Source of the DNA: Escherichia phage T7
Length of the DNA stretch: 38,112 nucleotides
Sequence record: MZ375238.1
Strand: one strand, 5' to 3'
In this document: positions 12,291 through 38,112 of the stretch, one piece after another
Layout: the number at the start of each line of letters is the position of its first letter
Numbering within the stretch: position 1 is the stretch's first letter
Notes under the pieces: model-generated
Told to the model about the DNA's origin: nothing
Database searches by the model: none
The model's input: the letters and a program-made list of their open reading frames with translations, nothing else
Made by a program: the position numbers and the translations under genes

Positions 12291-12698
12291 ATGCGTGACC
12301 CTAAAGTTATCCAAGCAGAAATCGCTAAACTGGAAGCTGAACTGGAGGACGTTAAGTACCATGAAGCTAAGACTCGCTCCGCTGTTCACATCTTGAAGAA
12401 CTTAGGCTGGACTTGGACAAGACAGACTGGCTGGAAGAAACCAGAAGTTACCAAGCTGAGTCATAAGGTGTTCGATAAGGACACTATGACCCACATCAAG
12501 GCTGGTGATTGGGTTAAGGTTGACATGGGAGTTGTTGGTGGATACGGCTACGTCCGCTCAGTTAGTGGCAAATATGCACAAGTGTCATACATCACAGGTG
12601 TTACTCCACGCGGTGCAATCGTTGCCGATAAGACCAACATGATTCACACAGGTTTCTTGACAGTTGTTTCATATGAAGAGATTGTTAAGTCACGATAA
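12291..12698 (+). CDS. Gene 4.7 protein
   Basis: 135 aa from ATG 12291 (MRDPKVIQAEIAKLEAELEDVKYHEAK...). Confidence 0.85.
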   Translation: MRDPKVIQAEIAKLEAELEDVKYHEAKTRSAVHILKNLGWTWTRQTGWKKPEVTKLSHKVFDKDTMTHIKAGDWVKVDMGVVGGYGYVRSVSGKYAQVSYITGVTPRGAIVADKTNMIHTGFLTVVSYEEIVKSR

Positions 12699-35733: not shown

Positions 35734-37494
35734 GTGTCTACTCAATCCAATCGTAATGCGCTCGTAGTGGCGCAACTGAAAGGAGACTTCGTGGCGTTCC
35801 TATTCGTCTTATGGAAGGCGCTAAACCTACCGGTGCCCACTAAGTGTCAGATTGACATGGCTAAGGTGCTGGCGAATGGAGACAACAAGAAGTTCATCTT
35901 ACAGGCTTTCCGTGGTATCGGTAAGTCGTTCATCACATGTGCGTTCGTTGTGTGGTCCTTATGGAGAGACCCTCAGTTGAAGATACTTATCGTATCAGCC
36001 TCTAAGGAGCGTGCAGACGCTAACTCCATCTTTATTAAGAACATCATTGACCTGCTGCCATTCCTATCTGAGTTAAAGCCAAGACCCGGACAGCGTGACT
36101 CGGTAATCAGCTTTGATGTAGGCCCAGCCAATCCTGACCACTCTCCTAGTGTGAAATCAGTAGGTATCACTGGTCAGTTAACTGGTAGCCGTGCTGACAT
36201 TATCATTGCGGATGACGTTGAGATTCCGTCTAACAGCGCAACTATGGGTGCCCGTGAGAAGCTATGGACTCTGGTTCAGGAGTTCGCTGCGTTACTTAAA
36301 CCGCTGCCTTCCTCTCGCGTTATCTACCTTGGTACACCTCAGACAGAGATGACTCTCTATAAGGAACTTGAGGATAACCGTGGGTACACAACCATTATCT
36401 GGCCTGCTCTGTACCCAAGGACACGTGAAGAGAACCTCTATTACTCACAGCGTCTTGCTCCTATGTTACGCGCTGAGTACGATGAGAACCCTGAGGCACT
36501 TGCTGGGACTCCAACAGACCCAGTGCGCTTTGACCGTGATGACCTGCGCGAGCGTGAGTTGGAATACGGTAAGGCTGGCTTTACGCTACAGTTCATGCTT
36601 AACCCTAACCTTAGTGATGCCGAGAAGTACCCGCTGAGGCTTCGTGACGCTATCGTAGCGGCCTTAGACTTAGAGAAGGCCCCAATGCATTACCAGTGGC
36701 TTCCGAACCGTCAGAACATCATTGAGGACCTTCCTAACGTTGGCCTTAAGGGTGATGACCTGCATACGTACCACGATTGTTCCAACAACTCAGGTCAGTA
36801 CCAACAGAAGATTCTGGTCATTGACCCTAGTGGTCGCGGTAAGGACGAAACAGGTTACGCTGTGCTGTACACACTGAACGGTTACATCTACCTTATGGAA
36901 GCTGGAGGTTTCCGTGATGGCTACTCCGATAAGACCCTTGAGTTACTCGCTAAGAAGGCAAAGCAATGGGGAGTCCAGACGGTTGTCTACGAGAGTAACT
37001 TCGGTGACGGTATGTTCGGTAAGGTATTCAGTCCTATCCTTCTTAAACACCACAACTGTGCGATGGAAGAGATTCGTGCCCGTGGTATGAAAGAGATGCG
37101 TATTTGCGATACCCTTGAGCCAGTCATGCAGACTCACCGCCTTGTAATTCGTGATGAGGTCATTAGGGCCGACTACCAGTCCGCTCGTGACGTAGACGGT
37201 AAGCATGACGTTAAGTACTCGTTGTTCTACCAGATGACCCGTATCACTCGTGAGAAAGGCGCTCTGGCTCATGATGACCGATTGGATGCCCTTGCGTTAG
37301 GCATTGAGTATCTCCGTGAGTCCATGCAGTTGGATTCCGTTAAGGTCGAGGGTGAAGTACTTGCTGACTTCCTTGAGGAACACATGATGCGTCCTACGGT
37401 TGCTGCTACGCATATCATTGAGATGTCTGTGGGAGGAGTTGATGTGTACTCTGAGGACGATGAGGGTTACGGTACGTCTTTCATTGAGTGGTGA
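35734..37494 (+). CDS. Terminase large subunit (gene 19)
   Basis: 586-aa ORF, GTG start (translated [24 protein letters not shown]...), with ATPase and nuclease regions. Confidence 0.95.
36368..36637 (+). CDS. Possible gene 19.2-type ORF embedded in gene 19 (alternate frame)
   Basis: 89-aa ORF in the ORF track at about the position where T7 annotates gene 19.2; exact start uncertain and expression not demonstrable from sequence. Confidence 0.3.
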
Positions 37495-37575: not shown

Positions 37576-37598
37576 TAATACGACTCACTATAGGGAGA
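37576..37598 (+). promoter_or_regulatory. T7 promoter phiOR
   Basis: taatacgactcactatagggagaggag; +1 at 37593. Confidence 0.9.
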
Positions 37599-37752
37599 GG
37601 AGGGACGAAAGGTTACTATATAGATACTGAATGAATACTTATAGAGTGCATAAAGTATGCATAATGGTGTACCTAGAGTGACCTCTAAGAATGGTGATTA
37701 TATTGTATTAGTATCACCTTAACTTAAGGACCAACATAAAGGGAGGAGACTC

Positions 37753-37800
37753 ATGTTCCGCTTATTGTTGAACCTACTGCGGCATAGAGTCAAGTCCTAA
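37753..37800 (+). pseudogene. Truncated gene 19.5 (15 codons; deletion junction inside the ORF)
   Basis: RBS gggaggagact then ATG at 37753; MFRLLLNLLRHRV matches the gp19.5 N-terminus, then reads KS-stop instead of continuing TYRFLVVL... as recalled for T7. Confidence 0.75.
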
Positions 37801-37952
37801 GGTATACCCATAAAGAGCCTCTAATGGTCTATCCTAAGGTCTATACCTAAAGATAGGCCATCCTATCAGTGTCACCTAAAGAGGGTCTTAGAGAGGGCCT
37901 ATGGAGTTCCTATAGGGTCCTTTAAAATATACCATAAAAATCTGAGTGACTA

Positions 37953-38112
37953 TCTCACAGTGTACGGACCTAAAGTTCCCCCATAGGGGGTACCTAAAGC
38001 CCAGCCAATCACCTAAAGTCAACCTTCGGTTGACCTTGAGGGTTCCCTAAGGGTTGGGGATGACCCTTGGGTTTGTCTTTGGGTGTTACCTTGAGTGTCT
38101 CTCTGTGTCCCT
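37953..38112 (+). repeat. Right direct terminal repeat (160 bp)
   Basis: Identical to bases 1-160. Confidence 0.95.

What the first reader, a model, noticed from the sequence alone, without database searches (positions are those of the whole stretch)
37753..37952. 189-bp right-end deletion truncating gene 19.5 at a short direct repeat
The segment from the end of gene 19 (37494) to the genome end is 618 bp, against 807 bp in the reference as recalled. Gene 19.5 starts normally at 37753 but stops after 15 codons; the reading switches at catagagtca (37783-37792) into sequence that in T7 lies downstream of 19.5 (agtcctaaggtatacccataaagagcc...). My recollection is that T7 carries a second copy of atagagtca ~190 bp downstream, so this looks like recombination between direct repeats. 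The right-end repeat array and terminal repeat used in concatemer processing are retained.
Basis: partly seen in the sequence, partly recalled or inferred. Interest (0 to 1): 0.5.

Follow-up and report, generated by a model that had tools for sequence, protein, structure and literature searches.

The report
Known lab deletion in T7 gene 19.5
The window is a laboratory genome-reduced phage T7, and the finding is a real 189-bp deletion between two 9-bp direct repeats that removes most of the small gene 19.5 and a conserved DNA hairpin next to it; the same deletion is already deposited and published, so it is ordinary.

Summary
Against T7 (NC_001604), the window lacks T7 39429-39617, which is 189 bp. 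This lies between the only two copies of ATAGAGTCA in the genome (39420 and 39609), and one copy remains at window 37784-37792. Gene 19.5 is cut to 15 codons. The repeat array and terminal repeat are identical to T7.

First, the deletion also removes 79 non-coding bp holding a hairpin conserved across three Studiervirinae genera, probably the T7 "M-hairpin". Second, the genome is an engineered one. It also carries an exact deletion of the gene 1.4 CDS and a 1480-bp early-region deletion.

The identical junction occurs in 41 GenBank records. All are CiPGr (Cas9-based genome reduction) T7 clones from Yuan et al. 2022, who list gp19.5 loss as an undesigned large-fragment deletion and suggest such losses are probably CRISPR escape. 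It appears nowhere else that I searched.

The most likely mechanism is annealing of the 9-bp repeats after a Cas9 cut in gene 19.5, or replication slippage, followed by selection because the target is gone. This step is inferred.

In that series the deletion tracks small plaques at transfers 40-170 and is in every clone sequenced from transfer 180 on. Already known; low interest.

The parts
37784..37792 (+). Deletion junction: the single remaining copy of the 9-bp direct repeat ATAGAGTCA. It corresponds to T7 39420-39428 and 39609-39617; the 189 bp between the copies are missing.
37753..37800 (+). Truncated gene 19.5: 13 wild-type codons, then K, S and a stop (MFRLLLNLLRHRVKS*). Wild-type residues 14-49 are lost. 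These include the predicted membrane-spanning segment and the whole DUF5465 match.
   Evidence: transmembrane prediction from PMC2680503
37793..37952 (+). Right-end short-repeat array (T7 39618-39777), identical to the reference. It now sits directly after the junction, and the hairpin that precedes it in T7 (39568-39608) is absent.
37953..38112 (+). Right copy of the 160-bp terminal repeat. It is identical to window 1-160 and to T7 39778-39937.
37576..37598 (+). T7 promoter phiOR (start site T7 39229 = window 37593), intact upstream of the truncated gene.
35734..37494 (+). Gene 19 (large terminase / DNA maturation protein), full length. It marks the left limit of the right-end non-essential region.
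1244..1256 (+). Companion deletion J1: one copy of the 13-bp repeat AGGAAGTCGAGGA, with T7 1257-2736 (1480 bp) missing. It creates an in-frame fusion of gene 0.3 to the end of gene 0.7 (ORF 925-1620).
6127..6128 (+). Companion deletion J2: exact removal of the gene 1.4 CDS (T7 7608-7763, ATG through TAA) with no repeat at the junction. This is the designed 'cassette-gene' type of edit.

Best explanation
[quoted passage not shown] 2022. It is most probably clone T7_30S. The feature is a 189-bp deletion formed by recombination between the only two copies of ATAGAGTCA in the genome. The left copy lies in codons 11-14 of gene 19.5. The right copy lies directly after a conserved hairpin, 71 bp downstream of the gene's stop codon.

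Shown: the deletion, its repeat-bounded structure, its identity with 41 deposited CiPGr clones, and what it removes. It removes the membrane-spanning and C-terminal parts of gp19.5, plus the conserved hairpin that is the likely M-hairpin.

Inferred mechanism: Cas9 guided to gene 19.5 cut between the repeats. The ends were resected, with T7 gene 6 exonuclease as the likely agent. The 9-bp repeats then annealed, as in single-strand annealing or microhomology repair of the kind Kong and Masker 1994 described for T7. The product lacks most candidate protospacers and so escapes further cutting.

Inferred consequence: a null for gp19.5 and loss of the hairpin give a viable but weaker phage with small plaques. 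Continued Cas9 pressure nevertheless carried it into every clone sequenced from transfer 180 on.
For: Structure of the deletion.

Same 41-nt junction: it is found in 41 records, all MZ3752xx 'Mutant Escherichia phage T7 clone T7_nL/S'. It has no hits in IMG/VR, GTDB genomes or JGI metagenomes.

Published description: the paper lists gp19.5 among three 'large fragments' lost in T7 that were not part of the design, and says some such losses are probably CRISPR-escape mutations (PMC9825161).

Designed versus undesigned edits: the designed edits remove whole genes using 50-bp arms. That fits J2 (gene 1.4, exact CDS, no repeat) and does not fit this junction.

Loss of Cas9 targets: 14 of the 17 SpCas9 NGG sites overlapping gene 19.5 are destroyed by the deletion.

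Choice of repeat: ATAGAGTCA is the longest exact direct repeat between the gene 19 stop and the terminal repeat whose recombination removes part of 19.5.

Other undesigned deletions in the series are also repeat-bounded: J1 by 13 bp, and the 0.4-0.6 deletion in T7_40S by a 12-bp overlap.

Lineage: the window shares J1 and 7 of its 8 SNPs with T7_20S. The accession that would be T7_30S (MZ375238) is the one missing from the collection. The length fits: 39937-1480-156-189 = 38112.

Phenotype link: at transfers 40-170 the junction is in 13 of 14 small-plaque clones and 2 of 14 large-plaque clones (Fisher p = 7e-5). A T7 deleted for 19.5 plus the M-hairpin was reported to make small plaques and lyse late (Kim and Chung 1996, as cited in PMC2680503).

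No OL9647xx clone carries the junction. I assign that accession series, by clone name (T7_1t1), to the paper's screen for fast killers on Cas9-free hosts.
Against: The spacer sequences used against gene 19.5 are in supplementary tables that I could not read, so the claim that the cut lay inside the deleted segment is not verified. Three candidate sites near the 5' end of the gene survive the deletion.

The sequence cannot tell break-induced annealing from a rare pre-existing slippage mutant that Cas9 merely selected.

The plaque-size association is confounded by other deletions carried by the same clones and by shared ancestry.

Identifying the window as T7_30S is an inference from the numbering of the deposit.

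The position of the M-hairpin at T7 39568-39608 rests on my reading of the computed conserved inverted repeat and on the word 'adjacent' in PMC2680503. The primary papers were not available.
Confidence: 0.8

Rival explanations
1. The deletion arose spontaneously by replication slippage (copy-choice) between the 9-bp repeats, without a break. The hairpin next to the right copy may have helped. Cas9 then only selected a pre-existing mutant.
For: T7 deletions between short direct repeats are classical and arise without nucleases (Studier et al. 1979 and Kong and Masker 1994, as cited in PMC5630979). The same J1 junction, differing by one missing base, occurs in clones named differently and grown on a different host (PV223881, 'recombinant T7-B-G', BL21(DE3)). 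An imperfect palindrome (T7 39568-39608) lies inside the deleted segment next to the right repeat.
Against: The junction is absent from every T7 record outside the Cas9 series, including other passaged or evolved T7 lines, and from three large public collections. This is also what one would expect if the mutant is simply unfit without Cas9, so it does not decide the matter.
Confidence: 0.3
2. The deletion is a designed CiPGr edit, copied from a homology template on the targeting plasmid.
For: The genome does contain one designed edit (gene 1.4), and gene 19.5 was among the non-essential genes targeted.
Against: The designs remove either whole genes or 100 bp. This deletion is 189 bp, starts inside codon 14, ends 79 bp past the stop and is bounded by a native 9-bp repeat. 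The authors themselves class the gp19.5 loss as not designed. The junction I predicted for an exact 19.5 CDS deletion is in no record.
Confidence: 0.03
3. Assembly or sequencing artefact: a collapse between repeats.
For: The junction lies in a repeat-rich end of the genome.
Against: A 9-bp repeat is far shorter than any read or k-mer used in assembly. 41 separately deposited clones carry the identical junction, while other clones of the same study have the intact sequence. The authors detected the loss in population sequencing as well.
Confidence: 0.02
4. Natural polymorphism: a wild T7 relative that never had the full gene 19.5 and hairpin.
For: None found.
Against: The rest of the genome is T7 at over 99.97% identity with only 8 substitutions. 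Gene 19.5 and the hairpin are present in all 12 phages aligned, which span Teseptimavirus, Teetrevirus and Przondovirus. The hairpin is also present in 75 T7-like IMG/VR contigs.
Confidence: 0.01

Closest known systems
CiPGr genome-reduced T7 clones (Yuan, Shi, Jiang, Ma 2022, Nucleic Acids Res 50:13183; GenBank MZ375233-MZ375294, e.g. T7_40S MZ375240)
   Same: The 41-nt junction of the 189-bp deletion is identical. The exact gene 1.4 deletion is identical. J1 is as in T7_20L/S, and 7 of the window's 8 SNPs are shared with T7_20S.
   Different: No deposited record in the collection combines J1, J2 and J3 or has 38112 bp. The likely source, MZ375238, is not in the collection.
[quoted passage not shown]
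   Same: It removes gene 19.5 together with the adjacent hairpin. The phage is viable, makes small plaques and lyses late (as summarised in PMC2680503). This fits the small-plaque association seen here.
   Different: The end points of that mutant could not be checked because the papers are not held, so identity of the deletion is unknown. That mutant was isolated without Cas9.
[quoted passage not shown]
   Same: One repeat copy is retained, the missing length equals the repeat spacing, and the repeats are 9-13 bp. A double-strand break between the repeats is a known stimulus.
   Different: The classical cases are in the early region (as J1 is here) or in test constructs. This one is at the right end, and the break is presumed to come from Cas9. 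The mechanism is taken from the cited titles and my own knowledge and was not tested here.
CRISPR-escape deletion mutants of phages
   Same: Loss of the targeted region under continued Cas9 pressure. The authors offer this explanation for undesigned losses in general.
   Different: The actual protospacer is not known to me. Escape here costs a conserved cis element as well as the gene.

Membership tests
Escherichia phage T7 (Teseptimavirus T7) | Collinear near-identity to the reference genome, including the 160-bp terminal repeats | tested here: met
   Four collinear blocks at 99.84-100% identity. There are 8 substitutions in all, and the terminal repeats are identical.
Deletion between short direct repeats | The parent has two copies of the repeat, the product keeps exactly one, and the missing length equals the copy spacing | tested here: met
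   ATAGAGTCA lies at T7 39420 and 39609 only. One copy remains at window 37784-37792, and 189 bp are missing, equal to the spacing.
Deletion between short direct repeats | The repeat is the best available microhomology for that interval | tested here: met
   It is the longest exact repeat between the gene 19 stop and the terminal repeat whose recombination touches gene 19.5.
CiPGr T7 mutant series (Yuan et al. 2022) | Carries designed whole-gene deletions with junctions exactly at CDS boundaries | tested here: met
   T7 7608-7763, the gene 1.4 CDS, is removed exactly. The junction is shared with 63 records, all from accession series MZ3752xx or OL9647xx where listed.
CiPGr T7 mutant series (Yuan et al. 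2022) | Shares the undesigned gp19.5 large-fragment loss reported for that series | tested here: met
   Exact junction match to 41 MZ3752xx records and to nothing else.
CiPGr T7 mutant series (Yuan et al. 2022) | Identity with one deposited clone (expected MZ375238, T7_30S) | not testable with these tools
   The accession is not in the collection. The numbering scheme was verified at six other accessions.
CRISPR-escape mutation | The mutation removes or alters the protospacer or PAM actually targeted | tested here: inconclusive
   14 of 17 candidate NGG sites overlapping gene 19.5 are lost and 3 survive. The spacers actually used are in supplements that are not held.
Kim and Chung 1996 T7 delta-19.5/m mutant | Loss of both gene 19.5 and the M-hairpin | tested here: inconclusive
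   Most of gene 19.5 and the only strong inverted repeat downstream of it (T7 39568-39608) are lost. That this repeat is the M-hairpin is inferred from 'adjacent'/'nearby' in PMC2680503.
Kim and Chung 1996 T7 delta-19.5/m mutant | Same deletion end points | not testable with these tools
   The papers are not held.

The most novel reading that the evidence does not exclude
Among the CiPGr T7 clones in the collection, gene 19.5 is lost only through this repeat-mediated deletion, which also takes out the conserved hairpin. The junction I predicted for an exact CDS deletion that would keep the hairpin is in no record, whereas the designed deletion of gene 1.4 is in 63 records. The most novel reading not excluded is a genetic interaction: a hairpin without gp19.5 is worse for the phage than losing both. 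This would fit the suggestion of Kim et al. [quoted passage not shown] The simpler reading is that intramolecular annealing outcompetes plasmid-templated repair, or that my guess at the designed junction is wrong.
Probability: 0.08. Interest if true: 0.3.

Novelty: already known. Interest (0 to 1): 0.08.

Why it matters
It matters little as a discovery. The deletion is deposited in 41 GenBank records and is mentioned in the paper that produced them, and a T7 lacking gene 19.5 and the neighbouring hairpin was described in 1996. The value of the check is practical in three ways. It shows the window is an engineered, genome-reduced T7 and not a natural variant. It corrects the impression that all right-end processing elements are intact, because a hairpin conserved across three genera is gone. 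It also gives a clean example of a 9-bp microhomology deletion that serves as the route by which T7 loses a Cas9-targeted gene.

Tried and rejected
1. I looked for the junction outside the CiPGr series. A 41-nt megablast against 50,697 phage records found only MZ3752xx records. An exact 30-mer scan of IMG/VR, GTDB genomes and JGI metagenomes found nothing. A natural origin is rejected.

2. I looked for a designed exact deletion of the gene 19.5 CDS using a synthetic junction query and found none. My junction assumes the same ATG-to-stop design as seen for gene 1.4.

3. I tried to read Kim and Chung 1996, Kim et al. 1997 and Kong and Masker 1994. They are not held. The supplements of Yuan et al. 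are not held either, and a search for the accession number in papers found nothing.

4. Thermodynamic folding of the T7 hairpin region as single-stranded DNA was unremarkable (z = -1.7 and -1.3). Stability alone therefore does not single it out; conservation and compensatory changes do.

5. Rfam has no family for the right-end region. The only hit was far below threshold.

6. Pfam and PHROGs place gp19.5 only in families of unknown function, DUF5465 and phrog_2193.

7. Literature searches for the exact M-hairpin coordinates found only the Heineman 2009 mention.

Full report
**What the window is.** A megablast of the whole window against the T7 reference (NC_001604, fetched) gives four collinear blocks at 99.84-100% identity. 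Extending each block base by base shows that the window is T7 with three deletions and eight substitutions.
- J1 removes T7 1257-2736 (1480 bp) between two copies of AGGAAGTCGAGGA.
- J2 removes T7 7608-7763, which is exactly the gene 1.4 coding sequence, with no repeat at the junction.
- J3, the finding, removes 189 bp near the right end.
- The arithmetic fits the window length: 39937 - 1480 - 156 - 189 = 38112.

**The observation.** Window 37700-37792 follows T7 with an offset of 1636, up to T7 39428. Window 37784 onward follows T7 with an offset of 1825, from T7 39609. The 9 bp shared by both alignments are ATAGAGTCA.
- This 9-mer occurs only twice in T7, at 39420 and 39609. The missing length (189 bp) equals the spacing of the copies, and one copy remains.
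- The distance from the gene 19 stop to the genome end is 618 bp here and 807 bp in T7.
- Gene 19.5 starts at 37753 and now reads MFRLLLNLLRHRVKS*, against the 49-residue wild type.
- Window 37793-38112 is identical to T7 39618-39937, so the short-repeat array and the 160-bp terminal repeat are untouched.
The only correction is that the shared repeat is 9 bp, not 10.

**What was removed.** The deleted 189 bp are the last 110 bp of gene 19.5 (codons 14-49 and the stop) plus 79 bp of non-coding DNA.
- gp19.5 matches only families of unknown function (DUF5465 over residues 31-49; phrog_2193). Heineman et al. 2009 (PMC2680503) describe it as a short predicted membrane-spanning protein with a possible secondary role in lysis. 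What remains cannot include that segment.
- The non-coding part contains the strongest inverted repeat of the right end: T7 39568-39586 / 39590-39608, with 19-nt arms and a 3-nt loop.
- An alignment of 12 phages from Teseptimavirus, Teetrevirus and Przondovirus shows this element is conserved well beyond the end of the gene. AGGGATTC and ACACCA..CATCCCT are invariant, and they are followed by a conserved TA(G/T)AGTCA, which is the right-hand repeat copy.
- A pattern scan of IMG/VR found 78 stretches. Of these, 75 are in T7-like contigs and fall into a few sequence types.
- Between types, four base pairs change on both sides while staying paired: AG:CT, GT:AC and AC:GT in one helix, and TGAT:ATCA versus TAGT:ACTA in the other. 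The Przondovirus type replaces the inner stem with a different 5-bp stem.
- The sample is small, and the search pattern fixed the outer stem, so this is supportive and not conclusive. Folding energy alone is unremarkable (z = -1.7).
- Heineman et al. place the T7 'M-hairpin' next to gene 19.5 and report, citing Kim and Chung 1996 and Kim et al. 1997, that a mutant lacking both lyses late and makes small plaques. The 1997 title links the M-hairpin region to concatemer processing. I infer that the conserved element at 39568-39608 is that hairpin. I could not read the primary papers to confirm the coordinates.

**Where it comes from.** A 41-nt query centred on the junction cannot match wild-type T7 by megablast. 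It hits 41 records, all MZ3752xx 'Mutant Escherichia phage T7 clone T7_nL/S'.
- The gene 1.4 junction hits 63 records; those listed are from MZ3752xx and OL9647xx.
- J1 hits T7_20L/S, three OL9647xx clones and, with one base fewer, four PV22388x clones.
- The clone names fit Yuan et al. 2022 (PMC9825161). They passaged T7 on cells carrying Cas9 and a library of guide-plus-template cassettes designed to delete whole genes or 100 bp. They picked large and small plaques every 10 transfers and sequenced 60 of them.
- They state that loss of three large fragments in T7 (gp0.3-0.6, gp4.3-4.7 and gp19.5) was not part of the design, and that some such losses are probably CRISPR-escape mutations.
- The accession numbering was checked at six points: 236 = 20S, 240 = 40S, 249 = 90L, 252 = 100S, 265 = 170L and 292 = 300S. 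MZ375238 should therefore be T7_30S. It is absent from the collection.
- The window shares J1 and 7 of its 8 substitutions with T7_20S. The window is therefore probably T7_30S. This is an inference.
- The junction is absent from IMG/VR, from one genome per GTDB species and from JGI metagenomes.

**How it most likely arose.** The repeat-bounded structure is shown. The steps that follow are inferred.
- The designed edit for gene 19.5 would remove the CDS exactly, as for gene 1.4. The junction I predicted for that edit is in no record.
- Of the 17 SpCas9 NGG sites that overlap gene 19.5, 14 are destroyed by the 189-bp deletion.
- ATAGAGTCA is the longest exact direct repeat between the gene 19 stop and the terminal repeat whose recombination removes part of gene 19.5.
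- The other undesigned deletions I examined in the series are also repeat-bounded: 13 bp for J1 and a 12-bp overlap for the 0.4-0.6 deletion of T7_40S.
- Deletions between short direct repeats in T7, and their stimulation by double-strand breaks placed between the repeats, are established (Studier et al. 1979 and Kong and Masker 1994, cited in PMC5630979). The roles of gene 6 exonuclease and gp2.5 are from my own knowledge.
- The best account is a Cas9 cut inside gene 19.5, resection, annealing of the 9-bp repeats, and survival because the target is gone.
- The main rival is slippage without a break, followed by selection. Sequence alone cannot separate the two.
- The deletion sits on at least two different genetic backgrounds: with J1 in the window, and with a 0.4-0.6 deletion and different alleles in T7_40S. 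That means either recurrence or recombination in mixed infections.

**Consequence.** In the 60-clone series the junction is absent at transfers 10 and 20.
- At transfers 40-170 it is in 13 of 14 small-plaque clones and only 2 of 14 large-plaque clones (Fisher p = 7e-5).
- From transfer 180 on it is in every clone sequenced.
- No OL9647xx clone carries it. I assign that accession series, by clone name (T7_1t1), to the paper's screen for fast killers on Cas9-free hosts.
- This fits the small-plaque, late-lysis phenotype reported for the 1996 mutant, and a cost that is outweighed only while Cas9 targets the gene.
- The association is confounded by shared ancestry and by other deletions in the same clones, so it is suggestive only.

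**Verdict.** I add that the deletion also removes a conserved hairpin and that the genome is a published laboratory construct. The feature is already known and of low interest.

Noticed in passing
window 925-1620 (junction 1244-1256): The 1480-bp early-region deletion J1 is in frame. It fuses Ocr (gp0.3) residues 1-111 to the last 120 residues of the gp0.7 kinase/shut-off protein. The 13-bp repeat encodes EEVEE in both genes. The fusion is annotated 'protein kinase' in T7_20S.
   Followed up: partly
window 1244-1256 versus L099 (PV223881.1 828-1671): The same J1 junction, differing only by one missing A (a frameshift), occurs in four clones named 'recombinant T7-B-G' and similar, grown on BL21(DE3) (PV223880-83). 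The 13-bp repeat therefore looks like a recurrent deletion hot spot, unless these clones share a common laboratory ancestor.
   Followed up: partly
window 6125-6147: The exact deletion of gene 1.4 removes the gene's TAA stop, which is also the first three bases of promoter phi1.5. The promoter now begins TTTTACGACTCAC instead of TAATACGACTCAC, a change at positions -16 and -15. The effect on transcription of genes 1.5-1.8 is unknown.
   Followed up: no
window 1145, 18170, 23049, 24607, 31383, 32536, 33627: All seven coding substitutions relative to NC_001604 change an amino acid: gp0.3 D74G, gp7.3 R91H, gp11 A153E, gp12 T468A, gp16 G809S and A1193V, gp17 K214E. Six are in tail, core or fibre proteins. 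Six of the seven are shared with T7_20S, and four of these also with T7_40S, so some probably come from the laboratory stock or from early adaptation.
   Followed up: partly
window 162: There is a T-to-C change two bases after the left terminal repeat. It is shared with T7_20S but not with T7_40S.
   Followed up: no
L001 39568-39617 and alignments A1/A2: The hairpin downstream of gene 19.5 and the motif TA(G/T)AGTCA that follows it are conserved in Teseptimavirus, Teetrevirus and Przondovirus, with compensatory changes in four pairs. No Rfam family covers it. This is a conserved right-end element that annotation of these phages usually omits.
   Followed up: partly
L001 39420-39428 and 39609-39617; alignment A1 columns 42-52 and 289-298: The direct repeat itself is partly conserved. 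T3-group phages and the Klebsiella phages K10PH82C1 and TVB03 have TAGAGTCA at both positions, while the KP32-like phages and avDM11 do not. It may be a coincidence of two separately constrained sequences (codons His-Arg-Val, and the hairpin flank). If not, those phages would be prone to the same deletion.
   Followed up: no
L004 (MZ375240.1, T7_40S) 1341-1352 and 12631-12633: T7_40S carries the same 189-bp deletion on a different background. It has a 551-bp loss of genes 0.4-0.6 bounded by a 12-bp overlap, and a 195-bp loss in gene 4.3. The right-end deletion was therefore either formed more than once or moved by recombination.
   Followed up: partly
L021, L061, L096: Three of the 78 IMG/VR pattern hits have unrelated inner sequence and different flanks. 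One of them is in a 70-kb contig. These are chance matches to the search pattern, not hairpin homologues.
   Followed up: yes
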